Source of the DNA: Crocinitomicaceae bacterium
GTDB taxonomy: Bacteria > Bacteroidota > Bacteroidia > Flavobacteriales_D > Crocinitomicaceae
Direction of reading: 5' to 3'
DNA length: 24,229 bases
NCBI GenBank assembly: GCA_041596415.1
Contig: JBFHIN010000001.1
Span: forward strand, 1-24,229
Program-made: the position numbers and the translations under genes
Notes under the pieces: generated by a model
Seen by the model: only the letters and a program-made list of their open reading frames with translations
What the model was told of the DNA's origin: nothing
Databases searched by the model: none
In this document: positions 703-17,393 of the stretch, in pieces
Position numbering within the stretch: position 1 is the stretch's first letter
How the letters are laid out: the number at the start of each line of letters is the position of its first letter

Positions 703-1545
703 ATGACAAATAAAACTATATTACCGATACAGAAGTTCATTCTTTATGTCTTCGTATTGATAGCAAATTTAGGCGTGACCAATTTTGGCTGGGCACAAAC
801 AGTAGGGGAATTAGTTATTCCGGATGAATTGCGTGTTGTTGAAGGATTATATCCCCTTAAGAATTCAAAAGGAAACGGTTATGATATCCTAATACAGGAA
901 GTGGGTAAGTCACCATTAAAAGAATTTAGAAAAGAATTGAAAGATTCTTACGGGATCAATGCTAAAAAGAAAGGATCCAGTTTGGTTGCCTTGGATCAAA
1001 TGGTGAATACTTTGAGTGACAAGAAATTCGATTTGTATGTTTACATGGTTAAAGACCAGGATGGAAAGCATCTCAGACTCTGGATGAACATTGATGGAGA
1101 CAATTATATTTCCTCTTCTAGTCATAATGCTGAATCGTATAAGTTGAGCACCTTATTAAAGGACTTTGTGCGCGAATATTATAGCAACTACCTTCAAGAT
1201 CAGATCGATGATCAAACCAAGGCAGTAAACAAAATGAGCCGAACCGTAGATAAAGATCAGAAATCTTTGGCGCGATTAAAAAGTGATAAAGAGAAATTGG
1301 AATCTAAACTGCTTAAAACAGAGTCAAAGCAAAAAAAATTAGAAGCTAAATTGACTAGTATACAATCAGAAATAGCAACAAATGCTAAGGATATGAAAAA
1401 CATGAAGGACGAAATCGACAATTACGAAGTGAAAATAAAATCTGAAAATATAAACGTTGAGGATAAATCTTCGGATTTAAACAGGACCAATGAGGAGTTG
1501 GAGATCATGAAAAAAGGCATGGAAAAATTGGTTAATTTAAAGTAG
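703..1545 (+). CDS. Exported hypothetical protein with a long C-terminal coiled coil
   Basis: 280-aa ORF with an N-terminal hydrophobic signal ending GWA|Q. The C-terminal ~110 aa is K/E/Q/D-rich with heptad periodicity. Confidence 0.8.
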   Translation: MTNKTILPIQKFILYVFVLIANLGVTNFGWAQTVGELVIPDELRVVEGLYPLKNSKGNGYDILIQEVGKSPLKEFRKELKDSYGINAKKKGSSLVALDQMVNTLSDKKFDLYVYMVKDQDGKHLRLWMNIDGDNYISSSSHNAESYKLSTLLKDFVREYYSNYLQDQIDDQTKAVNKMSRTVDKDQKSLARLKSDKEKLESKLLKTESKQKKLEAKLTSIQSEIATNAKDMKNMKDEIDNYEVKIKSENINVEDKSSDLNRTNEELEIMKKGMEKLVNLK

Positions 1546-1588: not shown

Positions 1589-2224
1589 TTACTTCACCTT
1601 ATTTTTAAACTTTGTCAACCCCTGAAACACCATATCCATCACTTGTTCAATAGGGAGTGCATTATTGGCTGATACTGTTGTTCCTCCTACATTTGTTTGG
1701 AAGCTGCCAATGCTCCTAAATCCTCTGGCTCTGGTTACTTTTCGATATTTGCAACGCTTATCAATACCGTACGCTTTCATTTTAACCTTCACGAATGGGT
1801 GAAGTCTTGAGTAGTTCGCGTTTGGTCCGCCAACACCAACTCCTTTGGTGAGTCCGACAGTGATCTTGAACTTTACGTAATACTCCATGTATTCTGTTTT
1901 CATGGCCTGACGTTTTGTGCCCGTTGGAAAACCTCCAACCTGTTCAGAAGTAGCAGCTGTTTTGCGTTCCACACCTTTAGAATTCATAGAATATACGTAC
2001 TGAGAAGGAACCATTAATTCTTGCTGAACAATGTTCTTTATTTCGTTTACTGTCGAATCGTACAAGCGGGTAGGAATGGACAAACGTCCTGAATTATTGT
2101 TAAATACGAATTGATTGGTCAGACGATTATCAATGAACCAACGAACTTTGTAAATACCGGCATTTTCTTGTGCAAAGGAGCACAGTTTCATAAAAAGAAA
2201 ACCAATAAATAAAAATCGCTTCAT
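1589..2224 (-). CDS. Exported basic hypothetical protein; likely start is the ATG at 2224 (MKRFLFIGF), not 2272
   Basis: Signal-peptide-like MKRFLFIGFLFMKLCSFA|QE. No family motif recognised. Confidence 0.7.
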   Translation of the reverse strand: MKRFLFIGFLFMKLCSFAQENAGIYKVRWFIDNRLTNQFVFNNNSGRLSIPTRLYDSTVNEIKNIVQQELMVPSQYVYSMNSKGVERKTAATSEQVGGFPTGTKRQAMKTEYMEYYVKFKITVGLTKGVGVGGPNANYSRLHPFVKVKMKAYGIDKRCKYRKVTRARGFRSIGSFQTNVGGTTVSANNALPIEQVMDMVFQGLTKFKNKVK

Positions 2225-2365
2225 ACGCTTATAAATTTGGGCGCAAGTTACAGAATTAAAAGGATACAACAATCCAAAGTAATTGTGTAATTCATCATGT
2301 AATAATGTGAAAAATTAAATGTGTGAAACTTACACAATAACTGATCATATAACTCGTTTGCAATG

Positions 2366-2470
2366 AAGTCATCAAGAAATTCCTTTAATGAAAGGGAATG
2401 CCAACCGACCCGGCAGGGCACGGTGGAAAAACGATGTGAGGCTCGCGCCTAAACAAATATGCGAACTCCG
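2366..2470 (+). ncRNA. SAM riboswitch aptamer, SAM-I/IV-variant-like (no P4; P5 hairpin 3' of P1)
   Basis: P1 CAUC(2370-73)/GAUG(2433-36). J1/2 AAGA. P2 AUUCCUUU/AAGGGAAU (2379-2399). P3 CCAACC(2401-06)/GGUGG(2422-26) with the AA/U internal loop. P5 AGGC-UCGC-GCCU (2439-2450). The element is a GC-rich island in an AT-rich leader. Confidence 0.85.
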
Positions 2471-2521
2471 TGATTTTATTCTTGATGGTGTATATGTTTA
2501 ACACTAAAAACTTCATACATC

Positions 2522-3202
2522 ATGAAAAAAAAGAAATTGAATTTTGTTTCATTAAAAGCTGTAAAGCGGTTTTTTGAAAAATTGTATCAGAGGCGAAATA
2601 CAACTGTTTCATTACCTCACTCAGAGAAGAATTTAGCTCCAGATGGTTCTTCAAAAGGCTCTCTTTTTAGTTCAGATTTCCCTCGGGAGGATGAAGTGGA
2701 TTTTTTGTATGACAACTGTGGTGGTTTATGTGGTTGTGGACCAAATAAATGCCGCTATGACGATTATTTTTTTGGTTTACACATGGCTCTAGATATCCAT
2801 GTTCAAAACATGAAAAATGCTAAAAAAGAGAAAGTAATTGATTACTTAACGTGCAATCAGATACAACTTTTGTATAAGAACGGAGAAGTTAACCAATTTT
2901 TAATAAAAACTGACCTAATCGAAAATAACTACGTGTCTTTAAATTCAACTCCATGTTTGGATCCTCTATTGCTTGTAGTCCGTCATGATAAATTACAAAC
3001 GCATATAGACGTTTCTAGTTTGGATCGATACTTAATGATTGGTTTTGACGAAAAAAGAGAGATCATCGGAGTTACTGTGTTGAATTCGAATGCTAATGGG
3101 TCGTTTTTTTTATTGACGCTGGCAAAATTTATCTTGATCATTTCGCAACGTGAATTGACTGAGTGGAATGGAATACTGAGCTTTAATGCGTTAACAAATT
3201 GA
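2522..3202 (+). CDS. Hypothetical protein with a Cys cluster (CGGLCGCGPNKC) and a possible divergent DUF192-like C-terminal domain
   Basis: 226-aa ORF placed between the riboswitch and a strong terminator. The C-terminal half follows the DUF192 pattern by eye (LLLVV..THIDV...YLMIGFDEKREIIGV...AKFILII). The function call is weak. Confidence 0.65.
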   Translation: MKKKKLNFVSLKAVKRFFEKLYQRRNTTVSLPHSEKNLAPDGSSKGSLFSSDFPREDEVDFLYDNCGGLCGCGPNKCRYDDYFFGLHMALDIHVQNMKNAKKEKVIDYLTCNQIQLLYKNGEVNQFLIKTDLIENNYVSLNSTPCLDPLLLVVRHDKLQTHIDVSSLDRYLMIGFDEKREIIGVTVLNSNANGSFFLLTLAKFILIISQRELTEWNGILSFNALTN

Positions 3203-3204
3203 TG

Positions 3205-3244
3205 AAAAAGGCTCCGAATTTACATTTGTAGGAGCCTTTTTTTA
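3205..3244. terminator. Bidirectional intrinsic terminator
   Basis: AAAAAGGCTCC(3205-15)...GGAGCCTTTTTTTT(3231-44) between convergent genes. Confidence 0.85.
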
Positions 3245-3424
3245 TGCTGATATGCACAGGTTACTTTCCTTGAACACAAAAAAAAAAATTGATGAGATAC
3301 CATTAGGTGTGAATTTAGTAGAAGAGAATCTTAGAATAAACGATTTCTAAATTACACATTCCATGAGCGACCCTTTAAAGTACTTCAAAAAGCATCAAAA
3401 GTATTGAAGAAATAGTTTTTCTTT

Positions 3425-5011
3425 TTATTTCAATTTTATTTCGGCTACAATTCTCAACTGTTCTTCTAAAATGTCTTTTAAATCTTCAATCGTCGTAAAT
3501 GGATTCATTAGTACAGTTCGGAACCAAGTGCGATAAAACTCGTTTTTACTACATTTAAGTTTAGTGTATGAAACAAAAGAATTACCCCTTGCAAATTGTT
3601 CCTTTTGAAGCGTTTCGTTGATCGAATTGATTTCCTCTTCTTCATGTAAAGTCAGGTTTTGCGCCAGAACTTTTCCTCGATATTTCTCTGGAATATACCT
3701 ATATAATAATATATTCAAGGTTGGAAATTTATAGATCTGAAATTCTTCATGGCTAGCTATGATATTATGGAAGGAAACACAACGTGCGATGTTGTCGTCC
3801 AAGACTTCTTCAAATCCTTTTTTACCCATTATGGCTAAGGTACCATGCAATGTCAATGCTGAAAAGTTACGTGTACCTTCAATGGTGTATCGCCCAATAT
3901 CAAAACTTCCTTTTCTTGCTTGATAGTGCGTGTTATTTTCTGAAGCTTTTGCTAAACACAGATCCTTGAAAATCACAAAACTCGATCCAATGGGCATATA
4001 GAGTTGTTTATGGCCACAAATAGTAACACTATCAGCTCGTTCAATACCTTTGAATTTTTGTTTAGACTGCTCACTAAGTAAAAAAGCACCTCCAAACGCA
4101 GCATCCGCATGAAAATGGATATTGTTTTGTTCAGCAATATCGGCTATGAGCTCTAGATTATTGATTTCTCCACTTTCTGTAGTACCAGCAACACCAACGA
4201 GTGCTACGATCAGAACATTTTTAGCCTTATAGTCATTGATCTTATCATTTATTCGTTTTTGAATTTCTGAATCAGTTAGATTTTCCCATTCAAAGAAATC
4301 AACGTTGTGTTTTCCAATTCCTATAATTTTAGCAGCTTTATTAAAACTGTAATGACAAAGTTTTGGCGCTATGATAACGGCTTTTTCATAACCCTTTGCA
4401 GTCAAAGCGTAATGTATACCTTGATTATTTACACCGTTTTTGTCATTTGCATCGAGTAAATTAGAAAGGGCATAACTCATTGCCGTGATATTCGACATAG
4501 TTCCACCATTTGTAACGACACCGAAAACCTTTTCAGGATCATTTATACCGTCGGTGTACACCTTTTCTTGATAATGAAATATTTCTTTGTGAAAAAACGC
4601 CAGTACTTCTCTTTCAATTTTACTACCAATTCCGGATGTTTCGATCTTAACCAGATTTTGATTGTAATTTATGGATAGATCATTCAAATGACTCACTAGG
4701 GGTGGGATAGGTCCGGTCATGTGACCTATGAATTTTTTGGAATATACATTTACAATATTGGGCTCTACGGTAGATGCAATGAAATTATTGTACGTATCAA
4801 AGGATAGGGTATACTTATCAAAAAGTAAATTTGATTCATGATAATTAGAATTGGTTGAAATACAATTTGTATTTACTCTTTCAAGAAGTTGATCATAATA
4901 GAAATCGTTTTCTTTTTGTTTTGAAAACAGGGAAGGAATTGGATTTCTTTCGACTTTAGGTTCTTCTTTTGTTTCCAATTCACATGAGTTTAGTGCTGCA
5001 ACATCAATCAT
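3425..5011 (-). CDS. panP: Group II PLP-dependent decarboxylase, PanP-like (pyridoxal-dependent aspartate 1-decarboxylase family)
   Basis: Motifs FIGHMT, NQNLVKIETS, NGGT, HADAAFGG, VTICGHKQLYMP (PLP lysine), RKGSFDIGRYTIEGTR and FRTVLMNPFTT match Vibrio-type PanP. The substrate is not proven. Confidence 0.75.
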   Translation of the reverse strand: MIDVAALNSCELETKEEPKVERNPIPSLFSKQKENDFYYDQLLERVNTNCISTNSNYHESNLLFDKYTLSFDTYNNFIASTVEPNIVNVYSKKFIGHMTGPIPPLVSHLNDLSINYNQNLVKIETSGIGSKIEREVLAFFHKEIFHYQEKVYTDGINDPEKVFGVVTNGGTMSNITAMSYALSNLLDANDKNGVNNQGIHYALTAKGYEKAVIIAPKLCHYSFNKAAKIIGIGKHNVDFFEWENLTDSEIQKRINDKINDYKAKNVLIVALVGVAGTTESGEINNLELIADIAEQNNIHFHADAAFGGAFLLSEQSKQKFKGIERADSVTICGHKQLYMPIGSSFVIFKDLCLAKASENNTHYQARKGSFDIGRYTIEGTRNFSALTLHGTLAIMGKKGFEEVLDDNIARCVSFHNIIASHEEFQIYKFPTLNILLYRYIPEKYRGKVLAQNLTLHEEEEINSINETLQKEQFARGNSFVSYTKLKCSKNEFYRTWFRTVLMNPFTTIEDLKDILEEQLRIVAEIKLK

Positions 5012-15158: not shown

Positions 15159-17393
15159 TTAATATCGGACTTGAATACCAAGTCCCCATCCCATGTCACT
15201 GTCATAATGTGTTCGTATTCCAAAGTTCTTTGTCAAAATGTACGATAAACCAAACATATATTCCATATCCGTATTCCACATAAATTCGCCTCTAATCCTT
15301 TTTGATAGTGGAATATCTTCCCTTGATAATTGTAGTCGAACATAACCCTGGCTATATAATTCTGTGCGGAAATTTATGAGCATTGGTAGGGTATAATTGA
15401 ATCCTATGCTAACATAAGTACGGTTATCTTTTGTATTGTATTGCCCAAATAGATTCGTTTCCTTATAATTTTTACCATCTTCACGACTGCGCCAATCAAA
15501 TCCAATGAAAGGCTTAAACCATTGCATTTTACCGATGTAACGTCCCAAATGGGTTTCACTTTCATAGCCTGAAGATATATCTTGTCCAATACGCCAATCT
15601 GTTCCAAGAGCCCAGCGTGTGTTTTGAAATGCCATTTCACCATCCATACCGTTGGTAGCCAAGTCGTTTTTAAACATAAAACGTACAGGATCACTTTCAT
15701 TTTGTAACTTTTTGTAGAATTTCTTTGGATTGGTAATATTAACATTGGAAGGTGAATCTGCATAGGAAAATACCCTGTTCATTCCGGCCATCATGTGATA
15801 AAGTATGTGACAATGAAAAAACCAATCTCCCTCAGCATTGGCAAGGAATTCAATTGTGTCACTTTCCATAGGCATAATATCCAGCACATTTTTTAGTGGC
15901 GAATGACTTTTCTGGCTATTCAGTATTCTGAAATCGTGACCATGTAAGTGCATGGGGTGGCGCATCATTGAATTGTTGAAGATAACGATGCTAACAATTT
16001 CGTCTTTCTGGATAAGGATTTTATCAGTTTCCTTGAGAATTTTGTTGTCCATGCTCCAAACGTATCTATCCATGTTTCCCGTCAATTCGAATTTGAGGTA
16101 CTTAATCTTAGCGTTTGAAGGAAGTTCAGTGTTTTTTGGAGCTCTGAGACTATCATAACTAAGCGTTTTTATGCGAGAAGTCATTTCGTGCACTTTATGA
16201 TTGTGTTCGTGTGAAGTTTGCTTCTCTTTCGCTGATGTTTTAAGTTCTGGATACATTACACGATTCATATCCATTTTCTGATTTTGCATCGGCATACCTT
16301 TATTGACAAGATTCCCATCCATGCGCATCATGTTATTCATCATTTTCATTCCCTCGAAATATTGCAAAGGAGGAAGAGGCATGGCCAATTGTTTGGGACC
16401 TGCTCCAAAATACGCAGCTGCACTTCCCTGCCTGTCTTCAGATGTAAATAACAATTCGTAAGCAGCCGTTGAAGATGGAATGGTGACAATGATGTCGTAG
16501 GTTTCAGAAACGCCAATGATCAGTCGATCAACCTCTATCGGTTCTATGTCATTACCATCACTAGCTACAACCATGATCTTGCCTCCTGCATAAGTGATCC
16601 AGAAATAAGAAGAAGCTCCAGCGTTGGCAATTCTCAATCTGACTTTGTCGCCGGCCTTAAATTGAGAAAAATCTACTGATGGTTTACCGTTAACCAAAAA
16701 CTGATCGTAGAAAACATCACTGACATCCATGGCGTTCATCCTCTTCCACTCATTGATAATTTTCGTAAACAAGTGACCTGAAGTAATAGCTTCGGCATAA
16801 CTTTGAGTAGAATTCTTCTTTATGGCAAAGTAGTCGTTAGCATTATGCAGCAATCGATCGATCCTTTCCGGTTTAATGTTCGACCAGTCGCTTAATATGA
16901 GCGGTAGTTGAGGGATGTCGTCGATACCTCTTCGAAAAGTTGGATCATCGGATTTCTTTTTAAGAACCAAAGAACCATACATACCTATTTGCTCTTGAAA
17001 TCCAAAATGACTGTGGTACCAATGCGTTCCGTTTTGTTTAATAGGAAAACGATAAATATATTTCGATTGAATCGGAATAGGTTGTTGCGTTAAAAAAGGG
17101 ACACCATCTTCAGTGTTGGGGACAAATAAACCATGCCAATGTAAGGAGGTTGGTTCTTTCAAATTATTGTGTATTACGATCTCTGCTGTATCACCCTCTT
17201 CAAAGTATAGATCAGGTAGAGGAAATTGATTATTACCACTTATGGCGTGAACATTTTTACCGGCTACCTGGATTATGGTGTCTCTGAGGTCAATTTCATA
17301 ATGAACAATTTTTTGAGCAAAAAGAGTCAGACAAGGGCAAATGACCATATTAAACAGCCATAAAAGAAAAAATATTTTGTATTGACTTTTCAT
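15159..17393 (-). CDS. Multicopper oxidase (CopA/CueO-like) with a C-terminal beta-barrel-like domain
   Basis: All four copper motifs present: HWHG, WYHSH, HPMHLHGH, HCHILYHMMAGM. Also a signal peptide, a Met/His-rich insert and an amphipathic C-terminus ending in Tyr. Confidence 0.93.
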   Translation of the reverse strand: MKSQYKIFFLLWLFNMVICPCLTLFAQKIVHYEIDLRDTIIQVAGKNVHAISGNNQFPLPDLYFEEGDTAEIVIHNNLKEPTSLHWHGLFVPNTEDGVPFLTQQPIPIQSKYIYRFPIKQNGTHWYHSHFGFQEQIGMYGSLVLKKKSDDPTFRRGIDDIPQLPLILSDWSNIKPERIDRLLHNANDYFAIKKNSTQSYAEAITSGHLFTKIINEWKRMNAMDVSDVFYDQFLVNGKPSVDFSQFKAGDKVRLRIANAGASSYFWITYAGGKIMVVASDGNDIEPIEVDRLIIGVSETYDIIVTIPSSTAAYELLFTSEDRQGSAAAYFGAGPKQLAMPLPPLQYFEGMKMMNNMMRMDGNLVNKGMPMQNQKMDMNRVMYPELKTSAKEKQTSHEHNHKVHEMTSRIKTLSYDSLRAPKNTELPSNAKIKYLKFELTGNMDRYVWSMDNKILKETDKILIQKDEIVSIVIFNNSMMRHPMHLHGHDFRILNSQKSHSPLKNVLDIMPMESDTIEFLANAEGDWFFHCHILYHMMAGMNRVFSYADSPSNVNITNPKKFYKKLQNESDPVRFMFKNDLATNGMDGEMAFQNTRWALGTDWRIGQDISSGYESETHLGRYIGKMQWFKPFIGFDWRSREDGKNYKETNLFGQYNTKDNRTYVSIGFNYTLPMLINFRTELYSQGYVRLQLSREDIPLSKRIRGEFMWNTDMEYMFGLSYILTKNFGIRTHYDSDMGWGLGIQVRY

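What the first reader, a model, noticed from the sequence alone, without database searches (positions are those of the whole stretch)
2522..3244. Orphan Cys-cluster/DUF192-like gene under SAM control: candidate new sulfur/SAM-linked function
Established: SAM riboswitches normally control Met/Cys/SAM biosynthesis, salvage or transport genes. Seen: this monocistronic target (riboswitch, ORF, strong terminator) has none of those motifs. It has a basic, low-complexity N-terminus, a tight C-x3-C-x-C-x4-C cluster (CGGLCGCGPNKC) and no signal peptide. Inference: the C-terminal ~120 aa follows DUF192 spacing (IQLLYKNGE..FLIK / LLLVV / THIDV / YLMIGFDEKREIIGV / AKFILII) but lacks the usual GLM, FWMKNT and LEV residues. 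It may be a metal- or Fe-S-binding protein induced by SAM shortage, which would be a new regulon member. This is the best candidate for an undescribed system in the window.
Basis: partly seen in the sequence, partly recalled or inferred. Interest (0 to 1): 0.78.

Follow-up and report, generated by a model that had tools for sequence, protein, structure and literature searches.

The report
SAM-riboswitch-gated fusion of two unknown modules
A real 226-residue gene behind a SAM-sensing RNA switch fuses a four-cysteine knuckle to a DUF192-shaped beta domain, and both pieces belong to uncharacterised small-gene cassettes that in this group of Flavobacteriales almost always sit behind the same switch instead of methionine genes.

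Summary
A SAM-I/IV aptamer (2364-2466, 55 bits) precedes a single intact ORF (2522-3202), which ends at a strong terminator (3204-3242). The ORF matches no Pfam, NCBIfam, PADLOC or PHROGs family.

The ORF is not an orphan but a fusion of two modules.
- Residues 1-104 belong to a roughly 100-residue "CYS" family with invariant C66, C70, C72, C77 and D80.

Elsewhere the two modules are separate neighbouring genes, or are fused in the opposite order.

In the genus (Crocinitomicaceae MAGs), 10 of 12 CYS genes and 11 of 16 X genes lie in operons headed by a SAM-I/IV riboswitch. I inspected the genes downstream of 30 of the 35 genus riboswitch copies and of 36 metagenomic copies. Only one precedes a canonical gene (metK). 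The rest precede mosaics of uncharacterised small cytoplasmic and secreted proteins.

The leader carries a covarying anti-P1 helix and a helix that sequesters the start codon, which together make a translational OFF switch.

The biochemical function remains unknown. My best guess is a metal-knuckle/ligand-binding protein made when SAM is scarce.

The parts
2364..2466 (+). SAM-I/IV riboswitch aptamer (RF01725)
   Evidence: cmscan gives 55.0 bits against a gathering score of 41.1, E 1.1e-6, with the full model 1-99 matched. It is the only such hit in the genome. This leader is the only part of 1589-5011 that is conserved at DNA level across the genus, at 73-88% identity.
2368..2378 (+). Segment A: the 5' strand of P1 plus J1/2 (GUCAUCAAGAA). 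It pairs either with the P1 3' strand in the SAM-bound state or with segment B.
   Evidence: An 11-bp complementarity to 2479-2489 was reached by 0 of 300 shuffles. On a 22-leader alignment, 82% of cells are paired against 38-53% for slid controls, and 5 pairs change on both sides.
2479..2493 (+). Segment B/B2, the switching strand. UUCUUGAUGGU (2479-2489) is the anti-P1 strand. The overlapping AUGGUGUAU (2485-2493) is the sequestor strand.
   Evidence: B2 pairs 9 of 9 (one G-U) with 2515-2523, as read directly from the sequence.
2515..2523 (+). Segment C: AUACAUCAU, which includes the AU of the start codon and is sequestered by B2 when the aptamer is closed.
   Evidence: With the aptamer locked, the MFE forms a hairpin across 2479-2524. 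On the alignment, 76% of cells are paired against 24-61% for slid controls.
2522..3202 (+). CDS of 226 aa (P0001): a fusion of the CYS module and the X domain.
   Evidence: Intact ORF. The same ORF, with two conservative substitutions (E180D, I206V), is in an independent assembly, GCA_041592875.1.
2522..2833 (+). CYS module (aa 1-104): a basic N-terminal helix (aa 11-26), a disordered linker, a four-Cys knuckle and a long C-terminal helix (aa 78-110).
   Evidence: It aligns with stand-alone 68-136 aa proteins. A profile search found 23 clusters, all hypothetical. The AlphaFold model is weak, pLDDT 58.
2717..2752 (+). Cys cluster C66-x3-C70-x-C72-x4-C77, followed by D80-D81.
   Evidence: C66, C70, C72, C77 and D80 are invariant in 26 sequences.
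2834..3199 (+). X domain (aa 105-226): an 11-strand all-beta domain with a DUF192-like fold. Conserved residues are H155, T160 and F195.
3204..3249 (+). Intrinsic terminator: a 12-bp stem, a 15-nt loop and a U7 tract. It possibly serves both convergent genes.
   Evidence: -17 kcal/mol, z -4.0, matched by 1 of 200 shuffles.

Best explanation
Window 2364-3249 is a self-contained, SAM-repressed expression unit.

The switch (shown).
- When SAM is plentiful, the SAM-I/IV aptamer closes P1. That frees strand B2 (2485-2493) to pair with 2515-2523 and bury the start codon, so translation is off.
- When SAM is scarce, the P1/J1-2 strand (2368-2378) instead pairs with 2479-2489 in an 11-bp helix. The start codon is released and the protein is made.

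The product (shown: anatomy, fold, conservation and linkage to the riboswitch).
- It is a cytoplasmic two-module protein.
- The N-terminal 'CYS' module has a basic helix, then an invariant four-cysteine knuckle (most likely a Zn or other metal site), then a long helix.
- It is fused to an 'X' domain, a beta-domain with the DUF192 fold and a conserved H..LQT.D / F...QAK surface.
- Both modules come from a pool of uncharacterised small genes. The pool also holds a helical 'HQLV-YN' module, secreted ~120-aa proteins, a ~220-aa 'D' protein, DUF3293 and others.
- In Crocinitomicaceae-like Flavobacteriales these genes are shuffled into different operons, nearly all headed by this same riboswitch leader.
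- The canonical Met genes of this genome (metH, metX) use ordinary SAM-I riboswitches instead.

Function (inferred).
- The protein acts during SAM or methionine shortage.
- The metal knuckle and helix serve as an interaction or nucleic-acid-binding part, and the DUF192-like barrel serves as a ligand- or partner-binding part.
- It works together with the other cassette modules.
- My odds: the regulatory mechanism and module assignment are about 0.85. A role specific to low-SAM physiology rather than conflict is about 0.5. No specific biochemical activity exceeds 0.2.
For: Riboswitch and platform:
- aptamer; alternative folds; 11 bp, 0 of 300 shuffles.
- 82% paired against 38-53% for slid controls, with 5 compensatory pairs. 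The helix varies among CAUCAAGAG/CUCUUGAUG and CAUUAAGAG/CUCUUAGUG; the UAUUUCGA/UCGAAAUA variant was seen in the separate helix scan.
- for the sequestor helix.
- SAM as ligand: one genus copy precedes metK. The G-A of J1/2 and the CCAACCGA/CGGUGG core are invariant in 22 leaders.

Real gene:
- Intact ORF, a second assembly carrying the same ORF, and a terminator.
- High-confidence fold of the X domain and invariant Cys residues.

Fusion of two modules:
- Separate adjacent genes in G006, G034 and G012.
- Opposite-order fusion in P0008.

Linkage to SAM-I/IV:
- 11 of 16 X genes and 10 of 12 CYS genes in the genus lie in riboswitch-headed operons; most of the remainder sit on truncated contigs.
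- Distant metagenomic homologues P0023 and P0039 are also directly behind the aptamer.
- None of the 36 metagenomic aptamer copies precedes a Met/SAM gene.
- Canonical SAM-I riboswitches sit before metH and metX in the same genome.

DUF192 fold.
Against: - There is no expression data. No RNA run holds the locus.
- No ligand-binding test of this aptamer was possible.
- The window's CYS module is the most divergent member. It lacks the family's DPP..NKFGV.E stretch and has N65, L69 and H93 where more than 90% of members have Q, T and Y.
- The X domain has L200 where most members have Q.
- The CYS fold is poorly predicted (pLDDT 58).
- DUF192 itself has no known function, so the fold gives no activity.
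- Thermodynamic modelling of start-site accessibility shows only a small difference for this particular leader: 0.30 free against 0.25 locked.
- A few family members lack a detectable riboswitch: G026, G017 and G064:C73.
Confidence: 0.7

Rival explanations
1. The protein is a metal- or Fe-S-dependent enzyme or carrier that takes part directly in sulfur, methionine or SAM metabolism or salvage. This would make it a missing step of the classical SAM regulon.
For: - SAM riboswitches overwhelmingly control Met/Cys/SAM genes (established knowledge).
- Four invariant cysteines.
- Conserved polar residues H155, T160, D163 and K202 in the X domain could form an active site.
- Operon neighbours elsewhere include hydrolase-type proteins: an FGase, a transglutaminase-like protein and a C39/C70-like peptidase.
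Against: - The genes are patchy, found in 16 and 12 of 54 genus genomes.
- Riboswitch copy number varies from none detected to 6 per genome.
- The modules are shuffled into many architectures and often pair with secreted proteins. That is unlike a core metabolic step.
- The Cys spacing is neither radical-SAM (CX3CX2C) nor ferredoxin-like.
- No met, cys or radical-SAM genes are adjacent.
- Canonical met genes use a different riboswitch class in the same genome.
Confidence: 0.13
2. The cassettes are a conflict system (toxin/immunity or anti-phage). They use a fall in SAM as their trigger, for example depletion by a phage SAM lyase, and the riboswitch acts as the infection sensor.
For: - Patchy distribution within one genus, multiple copies per genome, modular shuffling of small cytoplasmic and secreted proteins, and insertion at unrelated genomic sites.
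- The leader is conserved at DNA level while the downstream genes differ, like a portable regulatory cassette.
- Papain-like and transglutaminase-like secreted proteins occur in some operons.
Against: - No PADLOC or PHROGs hit for any of ten module proteins.
- No copies in IMG/VR viral contigs.
- No recognisable toxin domain.
- No integrase or transposase, and no GC anomaly around the window gene.
- No published precedent was found.
Confidence: 0.1
3. The ORF is a decaying chimeric remnant. A deletion fused two neighbouring genes, and the product is non-functional or not made.
For: - The fused architecture is confined to one species-level cluster.
- The CYS half is the most divergent family member and lacks several near-invariant residues.
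- There is no expression evidence.
Against: - A 226-codon frame without stops.
- All invariant residues of both modules are retained.
- The X domain folds at pLDDT 92.6.
- The aptamer, switching helices and terminator are intact.
- An independent fusion in the reverse order exists (P0008), which argues that fusion is tolerated and meaningful.
- The only two differences in the second assembly are conservative.
Confidence: 0.05
4. This riboswitch sub-lineage no longer senses SAM but a related compound (SAH, a SAM analogue or another metabolite). The cassette genes would then deal with that compound.
For: - Nearly all of its targets are non-canonical.
- J1/2 and P1 vary between sub-types.
- Variant riboswitches with changed specificity are known in other classes (established knowledge).
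Against: - Scores are above the Rfam gathering threshold, with the conserved core intact.
- One genus member controls metK.
- The SAM-I/IV class has been shown to bind SAM (Rfam RF01725; Weinberg 2010, PMC2864571).
Confidence: 0.05

Closest known systems
SAM-I/IV variant riboswitch (Rfam RF01725; Weinberg et al. 2010, PMC2864571)
   Same: Full-length match above the gathering score. It has P1, P2 without the internal loop, the P3 CCAACC/GGUGG element and the post-P1 hairpin. One genus copy controls metK.
   Different: In this lineage the class is almost never upstream of Met/SAM genes: 1 of about 66 copies inspected. It is instead attached to uncharacterised small-gene cassettes through a conserved translational platform (anti-P1 helix plus start-codon sequestor).
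DUF192 / UPF0127 / COG1430 (Pfam PF02643; PDB 3pjy, 3m7a)
   Different: There is no sequence-profile relationship (HMM and hhalign are negative), and 5-7% identity in the structural alignments. The DUF192 signature residues are absent, and a different conserved set (H155, T160, F195, QAK) is present. The protein is cytoplasmic and fused to other modules, whereas 3pjy and several of the AFDB matches are annotated as signal-peptide or exported proteins. DUF192 function is itself unknown.
Classical S-box/SAM regulon genes (metK, metH, metX, metE, metNPQ, cys genes)
   Same: Same regulatory logic: expression is repressed by SAM through a 5' leader aptamer.
   Different: The product belongs to none of these families. 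The same genome uses SAM-I, not SAM-I/IV, for metH and metX.
Short Cys4 zinc knuckles and ribbons
   Same: Four invariant cysteines within 12 residues in a small, otherwise helical module. A basic flanking helix is compatible with nucleic-acid or protein binding.
   Different: The C-x3-C-x-C-x3/4-C spacing followed by an invariant D-D..F is not the usual paired CxxC arrangement. No Pfam zinc-finger model matches, and metal binding is untested.

Membership tests
SAM-I/IV riboswitch (RF01725) | Covariance-model score at or above the curated gathering score over the full model | tested here: met
   55.0 bits against 41.1, model positions 1-99.
SAM-I/IV riboswitch (RF01725) | An expression platform that couples P1 formation to gene expression | tested here: met
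   11-bp anti-P1 helix, reached by 0 of 300 shuffles. Covariation across 22 leaders. Start-codon sequestor helix.
SAM-I/IV riboswitch (RF01725) | Selective binding of S-adenosylmethionine | not testable with these tools
   Only indirect evidence: a conserved core and one genus copy before metK.
DUF192 (PF02643) | Match to the Pfam HMM at or above its cut-off | tested here: not met
   No hit for P0001 even at E 10. No hit in G000 or in 24 genomes of the genus, while controls matched. hhalign of family profile A1 against a canonical DUF192 gives probability 0.1.
DUF192 (PF02643) | The DUF192 three-dimensional fold | tested here: met
DUF2283 (PF10049) | Match to the Pfam HMM at or above its cut-off | tested here: not met
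   12.2 bits against a cut-off of 23, E 0.21, only residues 168-188.
Canonical SAM-regulon protein families (Met/Cys/SAM biosynthesis, salvage, transport) | Match to any curated family of these pathways | tested here: not met
   No significant Pfam or NCBIfam hit, and none for partner modules.
Radical SAM / Fe-S cluster proteins | CX3CX2C or another known cluster-binding motif, and a PF04055-type domain | tested here: not met
   The sequence shows C-x3-C-x-C-x4-C. No Pfam hit. Actual metal content is not testable here.
CYS module family (unnamed, defined here) | Invariant C-x3-C-x-C-x3/4-C-x2-D followed by a helix with a conserved Y...M | tested here: met
   C66, C70, C72, C77 and D80 are invariant and M97 is retained, but Y93 is H in the window. 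The profile search returns only hypothetical proteins.
Known anti-phage defence systems (PADLOC-DB) | Match to any defence-protein model | tested here: not met
   No hit for P0001 or nine partner-module proteins.

The most novel reading that the evidence does not exclude
The SAM-I/IV leader plus its interchangeable small-gene cassettes form a previously unrecognised, horizontally shuffled 'low-SAM alarm' system. The CYS-X fusion in this window is one such cassette. A riboswitch would serve as the sensor that launches an accessory stress or conflict response, for instance against phage SAM lyases or competitors that starve the cell of methionine, rather than a biosynthetic pathway.
Probability: 0.12. 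Interest if true: 0.9.

Novelty: new variant of a known kind. Interest (0 to 1): 0.68.

Why it matters
SAM riboswitches are the textbook case of feedback control of a biosynthetic pathway. In this lineage one SAM-riboswitch sub-class has been recruited almost wholly to protein families with no annotation. There are at least ten module families, some secreted, and none is in Pfam apart from DUF3293, a transglutaminase-like protein and a hydroxy-acid dehydrogenase-like gene seen downstream in three loci.

That gives these uncharacterised proteins a concrete and testable physiological cue, low SAM. It also gives a first functional foothold for a DUF192-like fold, whose family has had solved structures since 2010 but no known function.

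If the cassettes prove to be a starvation or conflict response, this would extend what riboswitches are known to control.

Tried and rejected
- Sequence searches of the whole protein found only its own cluster. Pfam, NCBIfam and PDB sequence searches found nothing significant. The weak DUF2283 and RimP hits were rejected as sub-threshold.
- The search for related loci with alignment A1 failed because no stretch was conserved enough. With P0001 it found nothing in genome contigs.
- A mixed full-length alignment (A2) misaligned the CYS sequences onto the X domain and was discarded. The two halves were folded separately instead.
- The CYS fold is of low confidence and was not used for fold searches.
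- Complex prediction of the X domain against the CYS knuckle/helix gave no verdict: score 0.00, partner pLDDT under 50. This is not evidence either way.
- ESM Atlas feature searches on both halves gave nothing usable. The arthropod ESM4 hits at 0.82-0.86 are within chance range.
- PADLOC and PHROGs were negative. A viral-contig scan for the aptamer core was negative.
- No RNA-seq run holds the locus.
- The P0004 hit (a 6674-aa protein, 8 stretches) aligns to only ~50 residues of beta-strand. I treated it as uninformative.
- A DNA search of 1589-5011 across the genus found no synteny apart from the riboswitch leader, so insertion boundaries could not be mapped.
- GC content shows no island signature.
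- Literature searches for DUF192, DUF3293, SAM-I-IV-variant, and SAM lyase plus riboswitch gave no functional lead.

Full report
**1. What is in the window**

Rfam finds one structured RNA in the 24-kb window. It is a SAM-I/IV riboswitch aptamer at 2364-2466 on the + strand (55 bits, gathering score 41.1, full model matched).

An ATG at 2522, 55 nt downstream, opens a 226-codon frame that ends at 3202. A 12-bp hairpin with a U7 tail follows at 3204-3249 (-17 kcal/mol, z -4.0). The next gene (3425-5011, a PLP-dependent decarboxylase) is convergent, so the unit is monocistronic.

The surrounding genes are two-component and adenylate-cyclase signalling genes, a multicopper oxidase, and several secreted or unknown proteins. 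None belongs to methionine, cysteine or SAM metabolism.

The genome (a 2.4-Mb MAG, 90% complete) has no other SAM-I/IV copy. It does have two ordinary SAM-I riboswitches, in front of metH and metX. A near relative carrying a homologous cassette is labelled Crocinitomicaceae, order Flavobacteriales.

**2. The switch**

The strand GUCAUCAAGAA (2368-2378) is the 5' half of P1 plus J1/2. It is complementary over 11 bp to UUCUUGAUGGU (2479-2489). None of 300 shuffles of the downstream region gave a helix that long, and the unconstrained MFE uses it.

The overlapping AUGGUGUAU (2485-2493) pairs 9 of 9 with AUACAUCAU (2515-2523), which contains the AU of the start codon. When the aptamer nucleotides are locked, the MFE forms this hairpin.

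On an alignment of 22 such leaders from the genus (A5):
- The anti-P1 helix has 82% of cells paired, against 38-53% when the partner strand is slid by 1-3 columns.
- Five of its pairs change on both sides (for example CAUCAAGAG/CUCUUGAUG against CAUUAAGAG/CUCUUAGUG). The covariation score exceeds 499 of 500 shuffles.
- A third leader type, UAUUUCGA/UCGAAAUA, keeps the complementarity with quite different letters. MAFFT misaligns it in A5, so it counts against the helix there.
- The sequestor helix is supported more modestly: 76% paired against 24-61%.

This is the classic three-strand logic of a translational OFF switch. With SAM bound, P1 forms and the start codon is buried. With SAM low, the anti-P1 helix forms and the start codon is free. 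For the window's own leader the computed change in start-site accessibility is small (0.25 to 0.30), so this step is inferred from comparative evidence rather than shown.

**3. The protein is a fusion of two conserved modules**

The whole protein finds only its own 99%-identical cluster among 5.8 billion sequences. A six-frame search of relatives, however, finds the C-terminal ~110 residues in open frames of 204-226 aa and in shorter ones. An exhaustive HMMER search finds 20 representatives.

*C-terminal 'X' domain.* These homologues define a domain of about 110 residues (alignment A1) with near-invariant H155 and T160 and invariant F195 in window numbering. It occurs in four architectures:
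- alone (93-142 aa);
- behind a helical 'HQLV..YN..GN.GWTSSR' module;
- in front of that module;
- in P0008, in front of a Cys cluster.

*N-terminal 'CYS' module.* The window's residues 1-104 align with stand-alone proteins of 68-136 aa (A3 and A4). These share a basic N-terminal segment and a motif D-Q-C-x-N-x-T-C-x-C-x3/4-C-x2-D-D, followed by a helix ending Y...M. C66, C70, C72, C77 and D80 are invariant in 26 sequences. A profile search returns 23 clusters, all 'hypothetical'.

*Fusion evidence.* In G006, G034 and G012 a CYS gene and an X-domain gene are adjacent in one operon. In this window they are joined at about K104/V105. In P0008 they are joined in the reverse order. Two independent fusions plus conserved adjacency argue that the modules work together.

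An independent assembly (GCA_041592875.1) carries the same fused ORF with two conservative substitutions and an identical leader. The fusion is therefore not an assembly artefact.

**4. Folds**

*X domain.* With A1 as input, AlphaFold2 gives an 11-strand all-beta domain at pLDDT 92.6 and pTM 0.87.
- Foldseek agrees (E 4e-4).
- I confirmed that both entries are DUF192 proteins. A canonical PF02643 protein from a related genome (100 bits) matches them at E 1e-17 to 1e-18.
- Most AFDB-cluster hits, and three of the five Atlas rows shown, carry PF02643 (TM 0.5-0.71).
- At the sequence level there is nothing. There is no Pfam hit, and the DUF192 HMM finds no match in this genome or in 24 genomes of the genus. 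hhalign of A1 against a canonical DUF192 gives probability 0.1.

DUF192 has no known function, so the fold adds no activity.

*CYS module.* It folds poorly (pLDDT 58): helix 11-26, a disordered stretch 28-55, an unstructured knuckle and a long helix 78-110.

**5. The riboswitch link is the rule for these families**

Across 54 genomes of the genus there are 35 SAM-I/IV hits in 21 genomes, up to six in one genome. Reading the genes downstream of 30 of them:
- One is metK.
- All the others precede combinations of X, HQLV-X, CYS, a secreted ~120-aa protein (SP), a ~220-aa protein (D), and other small proteins.
- The start codon lies a nearly constant 40-58 nt after the aptamer.

Profile searches list 16 X-domain genes and 12 CYS genes in the genus.

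| Family | Genes in genus | In a SAM-I/IV-headed operon | Others |
|---|---|---|---|
| X domain | 16 | 11 | 1 with a weak or degenerate copy; 2 cut by contig ends; 2 with no riboswitch detected (G017, G026) or none on that contig (G073:C235) |
| CYS | 12 | 10 | 1 cut by a contig end; 1 none (G064:C73) |

Distant metagenomic relatives also sit directly behind the aptamer: the X-HQLV fusion P0023 on three contigs, and CYS P0039 on two.

A pattern scan of 241 million metagenome records for this aptamer core gave 36 loci. None precedes a Met/SAM gene. They add further modules: a 128-aa 'IWKTTYL' protein, DUF3293, and a 555-aa secreted transglutaminase-like protein.

At DNA level, the leader from the aptamer to just past the ATG is the only part of window 1589-5011 conserved across the genus (73-88% identity). 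It behaves as a portable regulatory head attached to interchangeable genes. Two loci carry tandem or repeated riboswitches within one operon (G006:C41 and G012:C40).

**6. What it most likely does**

Shown:
- SAM-class aptamer;
- covarying translational platform;
- real two-module protein;
- DUF192-like fold;
- invariant Cys4;
- systematic riboswitch linkage.

Inferred: the protein is made when SAM is scarce and acts in the cytoplasm, since it has no signal peptide. The Cys4 knuckle probably holds a metal. The basic helix and long helix probably mediate binding to a partner or nucleic acid. The beta domain probably serves as a binding module.

I cannot name a reaction. The patchy distribution (16 and 12 of 54 genomes), the variable copy number, the shuffling, and the frequent pairing with secreted proteins argue against a core metabolic step. 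They favour an accessory response to methionine/SAM limitation.

A conflict or defence role triggered by SAM depletion fits the same population features. It has no positive support, however: PADLOC, PHROGs and viral contigs are all negative, there are no mobile-element genes nearby, and there is no GC anomaly.

A decayed remnant is unlikely given the intact frame, the retained invariant residues, the confident fold, and the intact leader and terminator.

**7. Comparison and novelty**

The RNA is a member of a known class. The X domain works like, and is shaped like, DUF192 but is not a member by sequence. The CYS module matches nothing described.

I found no paper describing non-canonical targets of SAM-I/IV. 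The founding paper says only that the variants occur mainly in metagenomes (PMC2864571).

I therefore class the finding as a new variant of a known kind: a known riboswitch class with a new, uncharacterised regulon. The window gene is a unique fused representative of it.

**8. Limits**
- There is no expression evidence. Only DNA runs hold the locus.
- The predicted complex of the two halves gave no verdict.
- Genus genomes are related MAGs, so the counts are not independent events.
- The metagenome pattern was derived from this sub-family, so the absence of canonical targets among its 36 hits applies only to this sub-family.

Noticed in passing
G006:C41:15692-15794 and 15977-16102 (loci L024, L037, L041); G012:C40:555-689 and 1824-1926 (L038, L022): Two SAM-I/IV aptamers lie in tandem, about 180 nt apart, ahead of a five-gene cassette operon in G006. 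In G012 two aptamers sit within one operon, one before SP-D and a second before HQLV-X-CYS. This could give a steeper or staged SAM response.
   Followed up: partly
window 2364-2535 versus genus genomes: The riboswitch leader, up to just past the ATG, is 73-88% identical at DNA level in front of unrelated coding sequences. The coding sequences and flanks are not conserved at DNA level. The leader looks like a portable regulatory head, perhaps spread by recombination.
   Followed up: partly
L013 (G024:C326:920-1015, minus strand): This is the only SAM-I/IV copy in the genus found before a canonical gene (metK). Its start codon is 144 nt downstream and it lacks the anti-P1/sequestor platform of the cassette leaders (best helix 6 bp).
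   Followed up: partly
L065:3199-3597, L097; L045-L047: DUF3293 proteins occur either directly behind the SAM-I/IV aptamer or convergent to an X-HQLV gene, together with an HTH_3 regulator. DUF3293 has no literature in the searched library.
   Followed up: partly
L077:3348-5012, L091, L087, L085: A 555-aa secreted transglutaminase-like (PF01841) protein recurs in SAM-I/IV-headed operons, sometimes after a CYS gene.
   Followed up: no
L004:1713-2519 and L025:29-631: An N-formylglutamate amidohydrolase-family gene (PF05013, E 3e-43) and a secreted papain-like Peptidase_C70/C39_2 gene follow X-domain cassettes in two genomes.
   Followed up: no
window 1589-2272 (-) and 703-1545 (+): Both flanking genes upstream of the riboswitch encode proteins with N-terminal signal-like segments and no Pfam family (one is coiled-coil rich). 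The 227-aa one has DNA-level relatives in several genus genomes.
   Followed up: no
P0004 (6674 aa, metagenomic): A giant protein has eight stretches resembling residues 115-169 of the window protein (44% identity over 50 aa). This is probably a repeated beta-strand unit rather than a true X domain.
   Followed up: partly
L039/L035/L048/L090, downstream of CYS genes: A conserved trio follows stand-alone CYS genes: a 66-aa two-helix membrane protein, a 58-aa basic protein, and a 207-aa protein with two CxxC pairs (zinc-ribbon-like). None has a Pfam family.
   Followed up: no
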